A stretch of 64,000 bases of DNA from Sphyrna mokarran (taxonomy: Eukaryota). Every line of letters starts with the position of its first letter. Within the stretch, counting starts at the first letter, position 1. Both the position numbers and the translations under genes were made by a program. Where the stretch lies: positions 30,318,001 through 30,382,000 of the forward strand of contig JAGIQG010000021.1 of the NCBI GenBank assembly GCA_024679065.1. The letters run 5' to 3'. The notes beneath the pieces were generated by a model that made no database searches, was not told the origin of the DNA, and worked only from the letters and a program-made list of their open reading frames with translations. Positions 1 through 59,525 of this stretch are shown piece by piece.

Positions 1-57
1 CTAATTAAAGGCAACCAATACAAGGGAGAATATGAGAAAAAGGATAATCTTACTCAC

Positions 58-372
58 CTTTAACCCTGAATATGATGTATTCATATGTGTGACCGGAAGT
101 TGTTTGCAAATAATATCGATAAGTCCCTTCATCTGTCAGTTGTGTTTCCTGGATTAACAGTGATACATCATCTGAATTTGGATGAACTAATTTAATTCGA
201 CTTGGAGATACCGTATTATCTGAACTGAATACGAGACTTCTATTGTCCTCCGTTTTACTCAGTTCAATGCGAATATATGTTTGTACTATTGATGATTTGA
301 TTGAGCATGTTAGTTTAGTGTCTTCATTTAATATTCCTGTCACTACATCCTCACAATCTAACGTCACAAAGT
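58..372 (-). CDS. Gene A (B7/PD-L-like IgSF), atypical Ig V-domain exon; the gene continues beyond the window start
   Basis: Acceptor ttgtttttcag before 372 and donor gtgagt at 57-52. 315 nt, phase 1-1. Encodes (N)FVTLDCEDVVTGILNEDTKLTC...DVSLLIQETQLTDEGTYRYYLQT...IIFRVK. Paralogous to 15361-15687. Confidence 0.9.
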
Positions 373-462
373 CTGAAAAACAAGAATTTCCATTAGTTCA
401 CATTGCCTGAGTGATAATCGGTGTTCGATGAAGTATAAACTGAGGAACACTTTAGTACTTAC

Positions 463-529
463 TCTGTGTAAAGGATGGACTTGCGCATACGATAATATTA
501 AGGAAAATTATTGCACGGTGTAAACCCAT
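463..529 (-). CDS. Gene A signal-peptide exon (coding part; exon 463-547)
   Basis: ATG at 529 gives MGLHRAIIFLNIIVCASPSFTQ. Donor gtaagt at 462-457, 90-nt phase-1 intron to the V exon, tagcag tandem acceptor at 553-548. Confidence 0.88.
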
Positions 530-870
530 TACCGGAATTCAGTTCACCTGCTAATATGAAGATAATAGAGAAAAATCACTAAAAACACGAGGCTTTTGTT
601 TCACACACAAAAGGATCAAGTCTTGTTAATGGGTCAGAAAGCGGCAGACAAACTTATTCAGGGAGGGCAGTGGGACCCAGGCATTAACATCATTTGAGGA
701 CAGTGGTCTGTCCCTTTCAACCATTTCCCCCCAGTGTAGATTTCATCGGGAATTTCATGGGAGGATGGAAGCATTCAAATTCACCTCAGATATATTTGCA
801 TTGCTGGGAACGTTAGCTTTACACAAATGTCAACAAAATAATTCTTAAGTTTCTGAAAGTCAAACTGTAC

Positions 871-11574: not shown

Positions 11575-11603
11575 CATTGGCATTGTTGACTCCCTTCGAA
11601 CTA
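11575..11603 (-). CDS. Gene B cytoplasmic exon (VVRRESTMPM)
   Basis: Acceptor tttctcttctgttttactttcag, in frame with the TM exon. Donor ATG|gtaggt; read-through instead gives ...VGAISNV* ending at 11551. Confidence 0.7.
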
Positions 11604-13787: not shown

Positions 13788-13934
13788 CTGTATATAAATT
13801 TCTTCTGAATCGAAAAATTGTCAAGATGATTATTCCAACTGCAAGTGCTCCAACAATGACAAAGACAGCCGTGAGAACCTGAGTCTTTTTTTCTTCACTT
13901 TGCTGGTCAGTATTAGGTTCATCCAAGAGGGGAA
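13788..13934 (-). CDS. Gene B stalk + transmembrane exon
   Basis: Acceptor cttttcag, donor gtatga, 147 nt, phase 1-1. IPLLDEPNTDQQSEEKKTQ-VLTAVFVIVGALAVGIIILTIF-RFRRNLYT. Confidence 0.9.
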
Positions 13935-14222: not shown

Positions 14223-14519
14223 TTGGAAAATGCTTTTTAACTTCATATTCACGTTCTTCCACGTTCCACACAGCACAAGTGTAATTGCCTTCCAAAGCAC
14301 TGTTTGCAACTATGATCGGAAGAGAACTGGTGATCTTGAACAGCCCCTGTGGGGTCTTTATATGATCTGTTTTAGCACGAGAGGTGAGGTTTGTTTTGTC
14401 ATAGACAAACCAGTGAATCTCAGAGAGTGGATAACCAGTTGTTTCACAGATGAGGTCTGTCATTTTCATCCTTCTTGTGACATTGGATGCCAACATCATT
14501 TTTGGCAAACTGTATGGAG
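14223..14519 (-). CDS. Gene B Ig C-type domain exon (PD-L1/PD-L2-like)
   Basis: Acceptor tgtttttag, donor gtacgt, 297 nt. APY...LICETTGYPLSEIHW...TPQGLFKITSSL...GNYTCAVWN. Confidence 0.92.
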
Positions 14520-15270: not shown

Positions 15271-15360
15271 GCTGCACCATGCAAACAAAATAGGAATTTG
15301 TTGCTAATTAAAGGCAACCAATAGAAGCAAAAATATCAGGAAAAGAATACTGTTACCCAC

Positions 15361-15687
15361 CTTTAACCTTCAGTGTGATGAACTTATTGTCATATCCAAC
15401 CCTTGTTTCCAAATAATAAATATAATTCCCTTCATCTGTCAGTTGTGTTTTCTGGATTAACAATGATACATCATTTGAATCCGGATGAATTATTATAATT
15501 CGATTATGAGGTTGTTTGGCACCAGCTTCCAAATGGAACATGGGTCTTGGTTTTCTATCTTTTTCAATTTTACTCAGTTGAATGCGAATATATGTTTGTA
15601 CTATTGATGATTTGATTGAGCATGTTAGTTTAGTGTCTTCATTTAATATTCCTGTCACTACATCCTCACAATCTAACGTCACAAAGC
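15361..15687 (-). CDS. Gene B atypical Ig V-domain exon
   Basis: Acceptor tttttcag, donor gtgggt, 327 nt, phase 1-1. SFVTLDC...LTC...DVSLLIQKTQLTDEGNYIYYLET...FITLKVK. Confidence 0.92.
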
Positions 15688-15777
15688 CTGAAAAACAAGA
15701 ATTTCCATTAGTTCACATTGCCTGAGTGATAATCGGTGTTCAATGAAGTATAAATTGAGTTACACTCCAGTACTTAC

Positions 15778-15844
15778 TCTGTGCAAAGGCTGGATTTGTG
15801 CATACGATGATATTAAGGAAAATTATTGCACAATGTAAACCCAT
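15778..15844 (-). CDS. Gene B signal-peptide exon (coding part; exon 15778-15862)
   Basis: MGLHCAIIFLNIIVCTNPAFAQ, donor gtaagt, 90-nt intron. Confidence 0.9.
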
Positions 15845-16199
15845 TACTGGAATTCAGTTCACCTGCTAATATGAAGATAATAGAGAAAAATCACTAAAAC
15901 ACAAGGTTGAGTTTGTTTCAGTGGATCATGTCTTGTTGAAAGCGGCAGACTAAACTTGCTTTGGTGGGCAATGGGACCCAGGCATGGAACATTTTGCTGG
16001 ACTATCCAGTTAACATCATTTGAGGATAGAGGCCTGATCCTTTCATTCCTTCCTTTCCACCATCCCCCACCCCATCTCCTGCCCTCCCCTCCCCCTGTCC
16101 CCTGCCCCCGCCCCCCCCCAAACCAATTCAAGACCTGGTAACTCAGCAGTGTAGGCAGTGCCACTAGTAGTAGTGGCTGTCTCTTGAAGAAGGGGGCAC

Positions 16200-28517: not shown

Positions 28518-28658
28518 GATTTCTCCAGTAAAAGAACACCATCATTACCAAAAGTGCGAAAATTACGGCAAAGGACAGAGAGAAATAAACACCAACAGGT
28601 CTTCTCATTTTTGCTTTTTGTTGCTGATAGTTTCCTTCCATTTTAGGATTGTCCAATA
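28518..28658 (-). CDS. Gene C stalk + transmembrane exon
   Basis: Acceptor gccatttcag, donor gtatgt, 141 nt, phase 1-1. VLDNPKMEGNYQQQKAKMRRP-VGVYFSLSFAVIFALLVMMVFFYW-RN. Confidence 0.88.
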
Positions 28659-32168: not shown

Positions 32169-32423
32169 CTGCAGATGTGCATGCATTTTCAATGCATACA
32201 GAACAATTGTAGTTTATGTAATGCTGTTCATCAATGACTGAAATGTAAGAAGTGATGTTGTACAACTTATCTTCCATTTGTATTATGCTGGAATTAGCAT
32301 TTAAATTCGTTCCATTTTTAATCTGCCAGTGAAGTTCTGCCAAAGGATACCCAATTGTAGTACAAGAAAGACCTTTCTCACCACCTCGGTTGCTTTTGGT
32401 GACTTGAGGTATGGTATATCTGG
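32169..32423 (-). CDS. Gene C Ig C-type domain exon (short, PD-L-like)
   Basis: Acceptor tgttttcag, donor gtaagt, 255 nt. ARY...LSCTTIGYPLAELHW...EDKLYNITSYI...NYNCSVCIENAC. Confidence 0.92.
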
Positions 32424-34215: not shown

Positions 34216-34527
34216 CTTTAACAAAAAGTTCTATATCTTCTTTTTTATAACCAAATTCACAGTTTAGGAAAAGCTGATATTTCCCTTCATCCAAAATTTC
34301 CGTTTCCTCAATTATCAATTTTACAGTTCCTGAATCTGTGAGACATCTTCTTCGTCCCAGGGCATTTGCTTCTTCTTTGGGTGTACATGAGATTTCAGTA
34401 TCATTCATGAGAATCGAAATACTGTTACATTTTTTGTTCTTTATTAACGTGTACTGACAAGTCAAAACAGTGCGCTTGTTATGGATCCCTGTGACTGGAT
34501 TCTTACAATGGACAGTTACAAATGAAT
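34216..34527 (-). CDS. Gene C atypical, Cys-rich Ig V-domain exon
   Basis: Acceptor tatttatttcag, donor gtaggt, 312 nt, phase 1-1. DSFVTVHCKNPVTGIHNKRTVLTC...VKLIIEETEILDEGKYQLFLNC...IELFVK. Confidence 0.9.
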
Positions 34528-34629: not shown

Positions 34630-34702
34630 CACCAGCTACAATAGTCACAAAGAAGGAAACCACAATAAAACAAAGAATTTTTGGAAAATGGTAAGTAGCC
34701 AT
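34630..34702 (-). CDS. Gene C signal-peptide exon (coding part; exon 34630-34725)
   Basis: MATYHFPKILCFIVVSFFVTIVAG, donor gtaagt, 102-nt phase-1 intron. Confidence 0.88.
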
Positions 34703-40461: not shown

Positions 40462-41451
40462 CTCAGTAAAGTTTTACAACACCAATTTTAAACCCAACCA
40501 ATTTATTTGATAGTAAATTCACGAGCTTTCGACTTTATAGCCTTCGTCAGGCAAATGCAGTGTTCTGGTCTGCAATAGCACTCATATCCACACAGACAGT
40601 TACAGATTGCTGATTAGAATGCGAATCCTTACATCTAACCTGCTATTCAAGTGTTAAAGTGGCTAACAATGTGTGTGAAGGGAATCCTGAGCATTGGTTA
40701 GAGAATTGTGTATTTTCTCCAGACAGCACAGTAAGTGAGGTTTTTTGCTAACCCAGGCAAGTTACGGGGGTTACAGATAGTGTGTCATGAAGCCAAGATC
40801 CCTATTAAGACCGTCCTCATGTGTGCGGAACTTGGCTATCAGTCTCTGCTCAGCAACTCTGCGCTGTCGTGTGTCACAAAGGCCCCCTTGAAGGACATTT
40901 ACCCGCAGGTCGGAGGCCGAATGCCCATGACTGCTGAAGTGTTTGCCCACAGGAAGGGAACTGTTTTGTCTGGTGATTGTTGAGCGATGCTCATTCATCC
41001 ACTGTCGTAGTGTCTGCATGGTCTCCCCAATGTACCATGCTTTGGGACATCCTTTCTTGCAATGTATTAGATAGACAACGTTGGCTGAGTTGCAAGAGTA
41101 TGTACCATGTACCTGATGAATGGTATCCTCACATTTGATGATGTCGTCCATGTCTATGATCTGGAATGTCTTGCAGAGGTTGCTATGGCAGGGTTGTGTG
41201 GTATTGTGGTCACTGTTCTCCTGAAGGTTGGGTAGTTTGCTGTGAACAATGATCTGTTTGAGGTTGTGCGGTTGTCTGAAAGCAAGAAGTGGGGGGGTGG
41301 GGATGGCCCTAGCGAGATGTTCATCGTCATCAATGATATGTTGAAGACTCCGGAGAAGATGTCGTAGCTTCTCCGCTCCGGGGAAGTACTGGACAACAAA
41401 GGGTACTCTGTCCACCGTGTCCTGTGTTCGTCTTCTGAGTAATCTGTTCGT
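40462..41451 (-). mobile_element. 5'-truncated Penelope-like retroelement with a GIY-YIG endonuclease ORF (40771-41454) and pLTR
   Basis: NVVYLIHC..GCPKAWYIGET...RQWMNEHRS...E..LI..F.T...GLN; 10-bp TSD catctgtgga at 40452-40461 and 41452-41461. Confidence 0.9.
40517..40556 (-). ncRNA. Minimal type-I hammerhead ribozyme motif in the Penelope pLTR
   Basis: ATTTGC-CTGACGA-A-GGCT-ATAA-AGTC-GAA-AGCT-C-GTGAAT: core boxes, stem II, palindromic stem III and a 6-bp helix I. Confidence 0.55.
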
Positions 41452-42249
41452 CATCTGTGGAGGCAGAAGAGAGCCAACGTTTTGCGTCTGGATGACTCTT
41501 GTTCAGCTCTAAGATTAGTCATCCAGACTCCAAACATTAGTTCTGTTCTCTCCACAATCTTCCTCCAGACTCGGTATTAATCCCTCTCTACAGCTGCTGT
41601 CAGACCTGTTGAGATTTTTCAGCGTTTTCTGTTTTTATTTCAGCTTCCAGCATCCACAATATTTTGCATTTACACAAGAAGTGTTTGTTAATATGGAAAA
41701 CTGTGTGTAGAGGGGCTGCTCTGGCCTACATGTCATCCACACTCCCTGGGCTGATTACCCATTCTCAGTCCCAGTTGGACCATCAAACCAGAAGATTCTC
41801 TACAGCTGTGTTGTTCCAAAAGGGACAGTCACCACATTCTTCCTCCTTCAACTCTTCTATACAATCTTCAAAACTAAGTTACTCAAGCCCAAATTCTAGC
41901 TGAACATTATACACATGTAAGAAGTCTCACAACACCAGGTTAAAGTCCAACAGATTTATTTGGAATCATGAGTCCCCAGTCCAACACTGGCATCTCCACA
42001 TCATTATACACAGGAGTTGGACAATTATGAATTGAGTCTTTGGGGTGGGTTGGGGGTTATGTTTCTTGTGGAGAGGTGCAATTCTGAGATGCTTCCACCA
42101 GATTTACATTAACAGGAACTACAATAGTATATATCTCTTCTGGCACGGGTAGTTCATTGCAACTTGCTTCTGTGGAGACATCAGTTATATCTATAACAAG
42201 TCGATCTAGTACTCAGCTACTTTGGTACTTAAAATCTCAAAAACATTTC

Positions 42250-56800: not shown

Positions 56801-57391
56801 CTACATTTGTTGTTCACTTTTTGGAATGAGATACAAGTCCCCTTTGATAACTGTCGCTGTGACCTACTGTATTACTAAGGCAAAGCAAACTGTCCCTCCT
56901 ATCCAATTTCACGATTTTGGTAATTCTAATAATTTTTAGGCTGTGTAAAATCTGTAGATTTTATTCCTTACCCACTTTATAAATGGTTTAGTTTGAATTA
57001 CTATAAGTTAGATTTTTTTCCGGGAAGGCTTGTTTGTGAGAAACAGGCATTGTTTTATGACTTAAGTGACCTAAGATTCTGTAACCAGTTGCTCTATTTT
57101 TGAAGATAACAAATGAGTTTATGTTTTCTCAGATCGTGCCAAACAAAACTCTGTAGTTGTTGTTATCCCCAATGGATCTCAAGACTTTCATTTTCAAAAT
57201 GTTATCAAGATCACTACTGGGATATCTAGAGGCAGCTGCCTCCCTTGTCTTGCCAGTACTTCTGCTTATCTAAAGCAATTATGCAGTTCATTTCTGAATT
57301 CAAGCCTTCAACTATTTGGGACTTTTCCTTTTGTTGTTTGAAATCCTCCCCAAAACTAAACAGACTTAACTTTTTGTGTTTCTCACTCCTC

Positions 57392-57892
57392 ATAAATTAT
57401 AAGAAGGATGTGGAAACATTGGAGAGAGTGCAGAGGAGATTTACCAGGATACCACCTGGTTTGGAGGGTAGATCTTATAAGGAAAGGTTGAGGGAACCAG
57501 GGCTTTTCTCTTTAGAGCAGAGGAGGATGAGAGGCAGCTTATTAGAGGTTTATAAGATGATGAGGGGGATAGATAGAGTGGACGTGCAGAGACTATTTTC
57601 TTGGGTGGATGTAGATGTTACTATAAAGTTCATGGTGGGAGATATAGGAAGGATGTCCAAGGTAAATTTTTTACTCAGAGTGTGGTTGGGGTGTGGAATG
57701 GACTGGCTGCTGTGATGGTAGAGTCGGACACTTTAGGAACTTTCAAGCAGTTATTGGATAGGCACATGGAGTGCACCAGAATGATAGGAAATGACAGAGC
57801 TTGATCTTAGGTTTGGACATAGCTCAGCACAACATTGAGGGCCAAAGGGCCTGTACTGTGCTGTACTGTTTTATGTTCTATGTTCTGTTCTA
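57392..57892 (+). mobile_element. CR1-type LINE 3' end
   Basis: YKKDVETLERVQRRFTR...GLFSLEQRRMRG.LLEVYKMMRGIDRVD; tail tatgttctatgttc. Confidence 0.88.
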
Positions 57893-58985: not shown

Positions 58986-59254
58986 CACCTCCATCTACTG
59001 GGGTAAAGCACATTTATGTTACAGCTAATTCTCATTTATTACCCTCTAATATCTATCTTAAAATGGACATGCTGAAAAAAAAGCTATCCTAAACAAAAAT
59101 CACTTTGTTATAAGAAAACATGTAATAAGGAGTTCCTGACCTATAATGTTTACATTTACTGCCGTAAACCTAATAGACACAACAGACATAAACATTTTCA
59201 TTATTGTTAATAATTTACCAACTATTAATTACTAACTGTTTCAACTCAATGGAC

Positions 59255-59525
59255 TGAGTTATTGGGAGAGGTTGCAAAGGCTAGGACTTCTTTCTTTGGA
59301 GCGGAGGACACTGAAGGGTGATCTTATAGAGATGTATAAGATCATGAGAAGCATGAATAGGGTGAATGCATTTAATTTTTTCCGGGGTTGGAAATCGAGA
59401 ACTAGGGGGCATAGGTTCAAGATAAGAGGGGAAGGAATTAATGGGAACCTGAGGAGCAACCTTTTTACACAGACAGTGGTATGTCTGTGGAATTGGTACT
59501 GGAAAAAGTGGTTATGGTAGGGGCA
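59255..59525 (+). mobile_element. CR1-type LINE fragment
   Basis: LGLLSLERRTLKGDLIEMYKIM...SRTRGHRFKIRG. Confidence 0.8.

What the first reader, a model, noticed from the sequence alone, without database searches (positions are those of the whole stretch)
15361..15687. V domains lack the canonical B-F disulfide and the C-strand Trp but share a new A-strand Cys
Seen in all three paralogs: the DxGxYxC cysteine is replaced (DEGTYRY, DEGNYIY, DEGKYQL), and none of the V exons contains a Trp. The B-strand Cys (LTC) is kept, and a conserved extra Cys sits 16 residues upstream (VTLDC, VTLDC, VTVHC). In A and B these are the only two Cys of the domain. Inference: a non-canonical A-B disulfide, or a free thiol or dimer link, replaces the Ig pin. 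Conservation between distant paralogs with intact frames argues for selection rather than decay. The PD-L1 G-strand ADYK motif is also absent, so the receptor may not be PD-1.
Basis: partly seen in the sequence, partly recalled or inferred. Interest (0 to 1): 0.8.

Follow-up and report, generated by a model that had tools for sequence, protein, structure and literature searches.

The report
Shark two-domain ancestor of SECTM1
Three intact B7-like surface-protein genes in this shark sit between a CD7-like gene and UTS2R, where mammals keep the CD7 ligand SECTM1, and have the same kind of unusual cysteine pair, so they are likely an ancient two-domain form of SECTM1, a gene published as unique to placental mammals, and would probably signal to T cells through CD7.

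Summary
All three V exons lack the F-strand Cys and any Trp, and have Cys6/Cys22 (C-x15-C). The pattern is not new: SECTM1 (K12, the CD7 ligand) has invariant Cys38/Cys55 with a predicted same-sheet disulfide (PMC4603632). These genes are not PD-L1, which lies on another contig between RIC1 and PLGRKT with canonical residues. They lie between a CD7-like gene (V, stalk, TM, YEDM tail; about 42 kb away, same strand) and UTS2R, followed by CYBC1 and NARF: the SECTM1 slot. Relatives occur in sharks, rays, coelacanth, ray-finned fish and lizards, labelled CD276/PD-L/CD80-like. A lizard member's first structural neighbour in the Atlas is SECTM1, by a small margin. Many fish members keep all three Cys plus Trp; F-Cys and Trp are lost together several times. 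Best reading: V+C (B7-type) co-orthologs of SECTM1, with an A-B disulfide, likely binding CD7. That contradicts the published eutherian-only range. No direct alignment to SECTM1, S-S distance or complex model was obtained, and a second shark B7-like locus has a similar Cys pattern. The scan reached the same reading before on another genome (e1-8587257).

The parts
15778..15844 (-). Paralog B leader exon (ATG at 15844)
   Evidence: tblastn with P0001; splice sites; joined to the V exon in run X1 contigs
15361..15687 (-). Paralog B V exon (the finding): Cys6 at 15670-15668, Cys22 at 15622-15620, Leu37 (15577) at the C-strand Trp position, Tyr90 (15418) at the F-strand Cys position
   Evidence: Pfam V-set E 1.1e-8; model pLDDT 94
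14223..14519 (-). Paralog B C-type Ig exon, B7/PD-L-like, canonical Cys pair and Trp
   Evidence: (C2-set_3 E 3e-5); V-C junction in a contig loose end
13788..13934 (-). Paralog B stalk and transmembrane exon
   Evidence: 85% identity to P0001 aa 228-279; splice sites
11575..11603 (-). Paralog B short cytoplasmic exon (predicted; the last exon was not located)
   Evidence: weak tblastn match E 0.28; splice sites
34630..34702 (-). Paralog C leader exon
   Evidence: tblastn with P0083
34216..34527 (-). Paralog C V exon: A/B Cys pair, four further Cys, no Trp, DEGKYQL
32169..32423 (-). Paralog C C-type Ig exon
28518..28658 (-). Paralog C transmembrane exon (predicted)
   Evidence: hydrophobicity scan; tblastn with the P0083 tail E 0.004
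463..529 (-). Paralog A leader exon
58..372 (-). Paralog A V exon: Cys6/Cys22 only, DEGTYRY, no Trp. Its C and TM exons lie 1.4 and 2.0 kb beyond the window start (L007)

Best explanation
The three genes encode intact leader-V-C-TM B7-type membrane proteins lying between a CD7-like gene and UTS2R, and are likely two-domain co-orthologs of mammalian SECTM1/K12, whose A- and B-strand cysteines are predicted to form a same-sheet disulfide in place of the B-F pin and whose V domain would likely engage the neighbouring CD7-like receptor on T/NK cells. Shown: gene structure, splicing of B in one run, Cys pattern, V-set fold, gene order, a separate true PD-L1, family range from sharks to lizards. Inferred: the disulfide (about 0.9), co-orthology with SECTM1 (about 0.85), CD7 binding with signalling through the receptor's YEDM/PI3K motif (about 0.6). 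Inferred history: a canonical B7-type V domain gained the A-strand Cys (three-Cys state, kept in many ray-finned fish), which made F-Cys and its packing Trp dispensable, so they were lost together several times; the mammalian gene also lost the C domain.
For: Synteny on contig C783: CD7-like V exon at 30.274 Mb (-), with TM exon and YEDM tail; human CD7 is its best-scoring single-domain chain among the 60 PDB rows shown of 966 (E 1.8e-9, rank 15 behind two-V antibody/TCR constructs). Paralogs A/B/C at 30.316-30.353 Mb (-). UTS2R at 30.665 Mb (+), E 1e-114 against 6e-41 for the next receptor. CYBC1 at 31.30 Mb (-) and a NARF-type gene at 31.33 Mb (+). The order CD7-Sectm1-Tex19-Uts2r is given in PMC4603632; CYBC1/NARF next in human is recalled. 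SECTM1 hallmarks: Trp33-x4-Cys38-x16-Cys55 and G113xYxWxL. Here: Phe1-x4-Cys6-x15-Cys22, B-Cys to F-Gly 58-64 aa (58 in SECTM1), GxYx[YL]x[LF]; 3 of 3 coelacanth rows in the alignment have GxYxWx[LI]. Atlas structure search with lizard member P0131 V: row 1 of 10 is SECTM1, TM 0.77, score 481. DSSP strands 3-6/22-25 and 25-29/45-49 imply that the two Cys face each other. 37 of 37 aligned members with F-Cys keep the Trp; 25 of 28 without F-Cys lack it; starred branches force at least 4-5 changes of the label. PD-L1 lies on C1215 between RIC1 and PLGRKT, with canonical Cys, Trp and a VDYK motif.
Against: No SECTM1 sequence was returned by any search, so no direct alignment or tree includes it. 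The Atlas margin is small: other V-set rows have TM 0.69-0.78 and scores 407-472, and the feature searches did not list SECTM1 for the shark or the lizard domain. The lizard rows are on a long branch with weak placement, and their gene neighbourhood was not checked. The GxQ end of the SECTM1 motif is absent, and spacing is x15 rather than x16 (x16 in 1 of 65). A butyrophilin/B7-H4-like gene on another contig (C224; P0140 in catshark) also has C-x16-C and no F-Cys, so the Cys pattern alone is not diagnostic. No CK1 (CSNK1D) motif was found in the 864 kb scanned. YEDM also occurs in CD28X and CD28H. Mouse SECTM1A/B also act independently of CD7 (PMC3769348).
Confidence: 0.72

Rival explanations
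1. SECTM1 co-orthologs with the A-B disulfide, but the shark proteins bind another receptor (a CD28-family member, or a GITR-like receptor) and CD7 binding arose later in mammals.
For: The V+C body is B7-like (best PDB profile hits CD276 and PD-L1). Sharks have extra CD28-family receptors whose ligands are untested (PMC11599192). Mouse SECTM1A binds GITR and acts without CD7. The three paralogs differ strongly in the C-C' and F-G regions.
Against: The tight linkage of ligand and CD7-like gene is kept in both shark and mammals.
Confidence: 0.12
2. An independent B7-family lineage that sits near CD7 and converged on the A-B Cys pattern; SECTM1 arose separately in eutherians, as published.
For: PMC4603632 found no Sectm1 in fish, bird, monotreme or marsupial genomes. 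The same pattern occurs at a second shark locus. No direct sequence link to SECTM1 was obtained here.
Against: It needs two unrelated Ig genes with the same rare Cys layout in the same slot between CD7 and UTS2R. The published absence rests on sequence-similarity searches and did not test cartilaginous fish (Table 1). SECTM1 is the first Atlas structure row.
Confidence: 0.11
3. The two Cys are not paired within the domain but are free or link dimers.
For: S-S distance was not measurable from the tool output. 37 of 65 aligned members have three Cys, so one must be unpaired or intermolecular there.
Against: The two Cys are opposite each other on adjacent strands in both models. They are the only two Cys in A and B. 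72 of 84 examined relatives under 650 aa keep both.
Confidence: 0.04
4. Duplicated PD-L1, CD276 or CD80 copies, or decaying pseudogenes, as database labels suggest.
For: NCBI names of relatives include PD-L1-like, PD-L2-like, CD276-like, CD80 and ICOS ligand.
Against: The labels disagree with one another. True PD-L1 is on another contig. Frames and splice sites are intact and B is spliced. The PD-L1/CD276-like rows form a separate branch (support 91).
Confidence: 0.01

Closest known systems
SECTM1/K12 (human), Sectm1a/Sectm1b (mouse): CD7 ligand
   Same: Position between CD7 and UTS2R; tandem duplication beside CD7; type I membrane protein; V-like domain with only an N-terminal Cys pair, aromatic residue 5 before the first Cys, GxYx(aromatic)xL instead of the F-strand YxC (PMC4603632; this locus).
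   Different: The shark proteins have an extra B7-type C domain; Cys spacing x15 against x16; no GxQ after the F strand; SECTM1 is published as eutherian-only; binding untested.
B7 family V+C ligands (CD276, PD-L1/PD-L2, CD80, B7-H6) and butyrophilins
   Same: Leader-V-C-TM-short tail, phase-1 exons; best sequence-profile and fold matches.
   Different: No B-F disulfide or C-strand Trp in V; different locus; this genome has its own canonical PD-L1.
Teleost zgc:174863 and 'CD276-like/CD80-like' automatic annotations
   Same: Same family: A-strand Cys, V+C+TM.
   Different: Many keep F-Cys and Trp (three-Cys state); their gene neighbourhood was not checked.
Other V domains without the B-F bond (CD2/SLAM, CEACAM N domains; Siglec B-E bond) - recalled
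   Same: V fold stable without the canonical pin.
   Different: They have no A-B Cys pair, no B7-type C domain and no CD7 linkage (recalled, not tested).

Membership tests
SECTM1 | Gene lies between CD7 and UTS2R | tested here: met
   mammalian order from PMC4603632
SECTM1 | Two conserved N-terminal Cys (38/55, x16), no F-strand Cys | tested here: met
   C6/C22 (x15), Tyr/Leu at F; spacing differs by one residue
SECTM1 | G113xYxWxLxGxQ123 motif | tested here: not met
   GxYxYxL in A and B, GxYxLxL in C; GxQ absent; Trp only in 3 coelacanth rows of 65
SECTM1 | Single Ig domain ectodomain | tested here: not met
   V+C exons in all three paralogs
SECTM1 | Significant sequence or structure similarity to SECTM1 | tested here: inconclusive
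   First Atlas structure row for a lizard member with a small margin; no SECTM1 sequence retrieved; PF28742 not in the Pfam copy
SECTM1 | Binds CD7 | not testable with these tools
   Needs a binding assay; no complex model was obtained
B7 family (broad) | Leader-V-C-TM-short tail with B7/BTN-type C domain | tested here: met
B7 family (broad) | Canonical B-F disulfide and Trp in V | tested here: not met
   absent in 3 of 3; present in 37 of 65 aligned relatives
PD-L1/PD-L2 | Locus between PLGRKT and RIC1 (recalled), G-strand (A/V)DYK | tested here: not met
   A different gene on C1215 has both
CD80/CD86 | Linkage to ILDR1/CASR/TIMMDC1 (recalled) | tested here: inconclusive
   LSR/ILDR-family hits are on C668 and C335, none on C783 (3 matches); other markers not searched
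CD7 (the neighbouring gene) | Single V with J-like G strand, stalk, TM, YEDM tail, beside UTS2R | tested here: met
   YEDM-PI3K from a reference title in PMC2193045; lacks the PPP loop and synteny of CD28X

The most novel reading that the evidence does not exclude
CD7-SECTM1 is an ancient, jawed-vertebrate-wide, B7/CD28-like co-stimulatory pair encoded side by side. SECTM1 is a truncated B7-family member, and the large unnamed fish family (zgc:174863, 'CD276-like') is its two-domain form. The family records a stepwise disulfide swap in an Ig V domain (B-F only, then three Cys, then A-B only with loss of the Trp) that happened several times.
Probability: 0.55. Interest if true: 0.75.

Novelty: new variant of a known kind. 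Interest (0 to 1): 0.6.

Why it matters
It would move the origin of the CD7 ligand from placental mammals (PMC4603632) to the base of jawed vertebrates, give SECTM1 a place in the B7 family, and name a widespread mis-annotated fish, shark and reptile family with a testable receptor next door. The three-Cys intermediates give a natural series for how an Ig domain trades its canonical disulfide for another. CD7 and SECTM1 are in use as CAR-T target and binder (search listing), so conserved residues could help map their interface.

Tried and rejected
PD-L1 identity: rejected by synteny. PDB sequence searches with the shark V exon, the family profile and a lizard member and fold searches gave generic V-set and B7 matches and listed no SECTM1 among the rows shown; this is no evidence either way. 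The viral fold library gave generic Ig matches. Atlas feature searches gave generic V-set clusters. A profile search enriched in tetrapod rows found 8 of 6472 candidates, with two more lizards but no bird or mammal member (word-limited). A homolog search for the CD7-like V exon among proteins of 203 aa or more found 0 of 82 candidates. CSNK1D was not found by recalled kinase motifs in 864 kb. A thioesterase (FASN-type) hit lies 5.5 Mb away on the same contig and was not used. Complex prediction with the CD7-like V domain was not available, so there is no verdict on binding. No run was on record as RNA; the one laid shows splicing only. Literature: SECTM1+CD7+shark gave 1 unrelated review; B7 family+CD7+synteny+SECTM1 gave 0; searches listed no paper whose title or abstract start reports a non-mammalian SECTM1. 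Flajnik 2012, Quiniou 2024 (catfish), Zhang 2009 and one more id were not held; subscription papers and all supplements were unseen, so prior mention is not excluded. The careful tree did not finish; the quick tree was used.

Full report
Observation. A six-frame scan finds three V exons on the minus strand: A 372-58, B 15687-15361 and C 34527-34216. Each begins FVT(L/V)(D/H)C, has the B-strand LTC 16 residues later, has Tyr, Tyr or Leu where DxGxYxC has Cys, and has no Trp. A and B have two Cys, C has six. The B exon scores as Pfam V-set (E 1.1e-8) and folds as a V domain at pLDDT 94 (best VIA match B7-H6, Z 15.3, tied with VSIG4 and nectins). A and B share an identical first 106 nt of the exon after its first base, so they count as one witness.

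Gene structure. Each paralog has leader, V, C and TM exons with intact frames. Contigs of one public run cover the B leader and V exon, skip the 90-nt intron and continue into the C exon (1 of 1 run laid, RNA status a guess). The closest named proteins are from Mustelus (75-76% over V) and Scyliorhinus (60%), labelled PD-L1-like, uncharacterized and CD276 (3 of 84 candidates). A full-length model of the Mustelus ortholog matches B7 and butyrophilin ectodomains.

Not PD-L1. PLGRKT and RIC1 are on contig C1215. A gene 85% identical to a catshark PD-L protein lies between them, with canonical Cys, Trp and VDYK. The window is on C783.

Neighbourhood. About 42 kb beyond the TM exon of paralog A, on the same strand, lies a single-V gene with a Cys-containing stalk, a TM exon and a tail ending in YEDM. 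Its best single-domain match among the 60 PDB rows shown is human CD7 (E 1.8e-9). A frameshifted second copy lies 58 kb further. On the other side come UTS2R at 312 kb (E 1e-114), CYBC1 and a NARF-type gene at about 0.95-1.0 Mb. PMC4603632 (outline, passages, sections 15 and 18 read) gives the mammalian order CD7-Sectm1-Tex19-Uts2r. That CYBC1 and NARF follow in human is recalled. CSNK1D, expected beyond CD7 (recalled), was not detected in 864 kb. YEDM is the CD7 PI3K motif (reference title only, PMC2193045), but it also marks CD28X and CD28H; CD28X has a PPP loop and other synteny (PMC11599192, passages), which this gene lacks.

Match to SECTM1. The same paper describes a domain from Trp33 to Val133 with invariant Cys38 and Cys55, a predicted same-sheet disulfide and the motif G113xYxWxLxGxQ123, and calls Sectm1 eutherian-specific. 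PMC8515872 (passages) and PMC13223139 (passages) repeat these features or name no non-mammalian vertebrate homolog in the passages seen. The shark domains have an aromatic residue five before the first Cys (47 of 65 aligned rows), Cys spacing x15, B-Cys to F-Gly distance 58-64 (58 in SECTM1) and GxYx[YL]xL, but no GxQ; three coelacanth rows have GxYxWx[LI]. The Atlas structure search with a lizard member's V domain lists SECTM1 first of 10 rows (TM 0.77, score 481; others 0.69-0.78 and 407-472). No tool returned a SECTM1 sequence, so homology rests on position, Cys layout and this one structural hit.

Family range and history. A search of 1.84 billion representatives listed the best 150 of 500 hits. 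Of 152 proteins then held, I examined the 84 under 650 aa and left out 68 longer ones. I chose 62 for alignment by eye because they had the A-strand Cys, so its invariance is by selection. Of the other 22, 9 had the pair by script and 1 by eye, and 12 lacked it: 72 of 84 in all. Thirty of them were looked up for names: sharks, rays, coelacanth, sturgeon, bichir, gar, teleosts (zgc:174863) and lizards (two more lizards). Among 65 aligned V domains, 37 of 37 with F-Cys keep the C-strand Trp and 25 of 28 without it lack the Trp. The rows are related, so the Fisher value there is not a probability. The quick tree of 71 rows forces at least 4-5 changes of the F-Cys label, including a loss inside a teleost clade. 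Two family members lack the A-Cys and keep the canonical pair (coelacanth P0050, teleost P0102). The PD-L1/CD276-like rows form a separate branch (support 91, not starred); the lizard rows are weakly placed; the root is not known, so the order of events is inferred.

Mechanism. In both models the short A strand and the second half of the B strand have matching ranges (3-6 with 22-25; 25-29 with 45-49), which puts the two Cys opposite each other. Coordinates were not returned, so the bond is inferred. Most likely the A-B disulfide staples the N-terminal strand to the B strand, while Tyr or Leu fill the core positions of F-Cys and Trp. By analogy with SECTM1 (SPR binding to CD7 in PMC3769348, passages), the membrane-distal V domain would bind the CD7-like receptor on T/NK cells, which would signal through YEDM to PI3K, with the C domain as spacer. 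Binding is untested, and mouse SECTM1A/B also act without CD7.

Against. A second shark gene on contig C224 (butyrophilin/B7-H4-like) has C-x16-C and no F-Cys but keeps the Trp, so the pattern can arise elsewhere. Two published SECTM1 features (single domain, full motif) are not met, so I file these genes as a likely ancestral two-domain form rather than as plain members. PMC12151841 (passages) treats PD-L1 in sharks and did not bear on this locus in the passages seen.

Verdict. The Cys pattern itself is known from SECTM1. The link of a jawed-vertebrate-wide B7-like family to the SECTM1 slot beside CD7 was not found in ten paper searches, within the limits of the library. New variant of a known kind; interest 0.6.

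Noticed in passing
G000:C783:30273624-30273968 (L011:5624-5968, -), TM exon near 30269850, tail near 30266465: Intact CD7-like gene in a shark: V with J-like FAQGT, Cys-containing stalk, TM, YEDM tail.
   Followed up: yes
G000:C783:30215226-30215565 (L029, -): Second CD7-like V exon, about 70% identical to the first, broken by a frameshift; pseudogene or assembly error.
   Followed up: partly
G000:C224:86910341-86918959 (L093-L095): Butyrophilin/B7-H4-like V+C+C gene whose V domain also has C-x16-C and no F-strand Cys but keeps the Trp; a probable independent case of the same disulfide swap.
   Followed up: partly
window 1-684 versus 15304-15985: 82% identical duplicated segment covering the leader and V exons of A and B; the first 106 nt after the exon start are identical while the C-C' and F-G regions and the C exons (about 48% aa) diverge, suggesting gene conversion or exon shuffling. 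The two Mustelus proteins show the same pattern of near-identical V with different C.
   Followed up: partly
window 34216-34527 (-): Paralog C V domain has four extra Cys (aa 32, 46, 60, 88) that could form two more disulfides; its ortholog P0083 in Heptranchias also has six.
   Followed up: no
P0007, P0011: Fish relatives with many tandem repeats of the same V or V+C unit (916-1147 aa).
   Followed up: no
window 40774-41502 (-), 57230-57712 (+), 59236-59517 (+) and flanks: Fragments of retrotransposon-like ORFs (reverse-transcriptase and endonuclease-like) and many copies of a roughly 300-bp interspersed repeat in the introns; judged by eye.
   Followed up: no
G000:C783:30664853-30665992 (L067:2853-3992, +): Intact single-exon urotensin-2 receptor gene.
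   Followed up: yes
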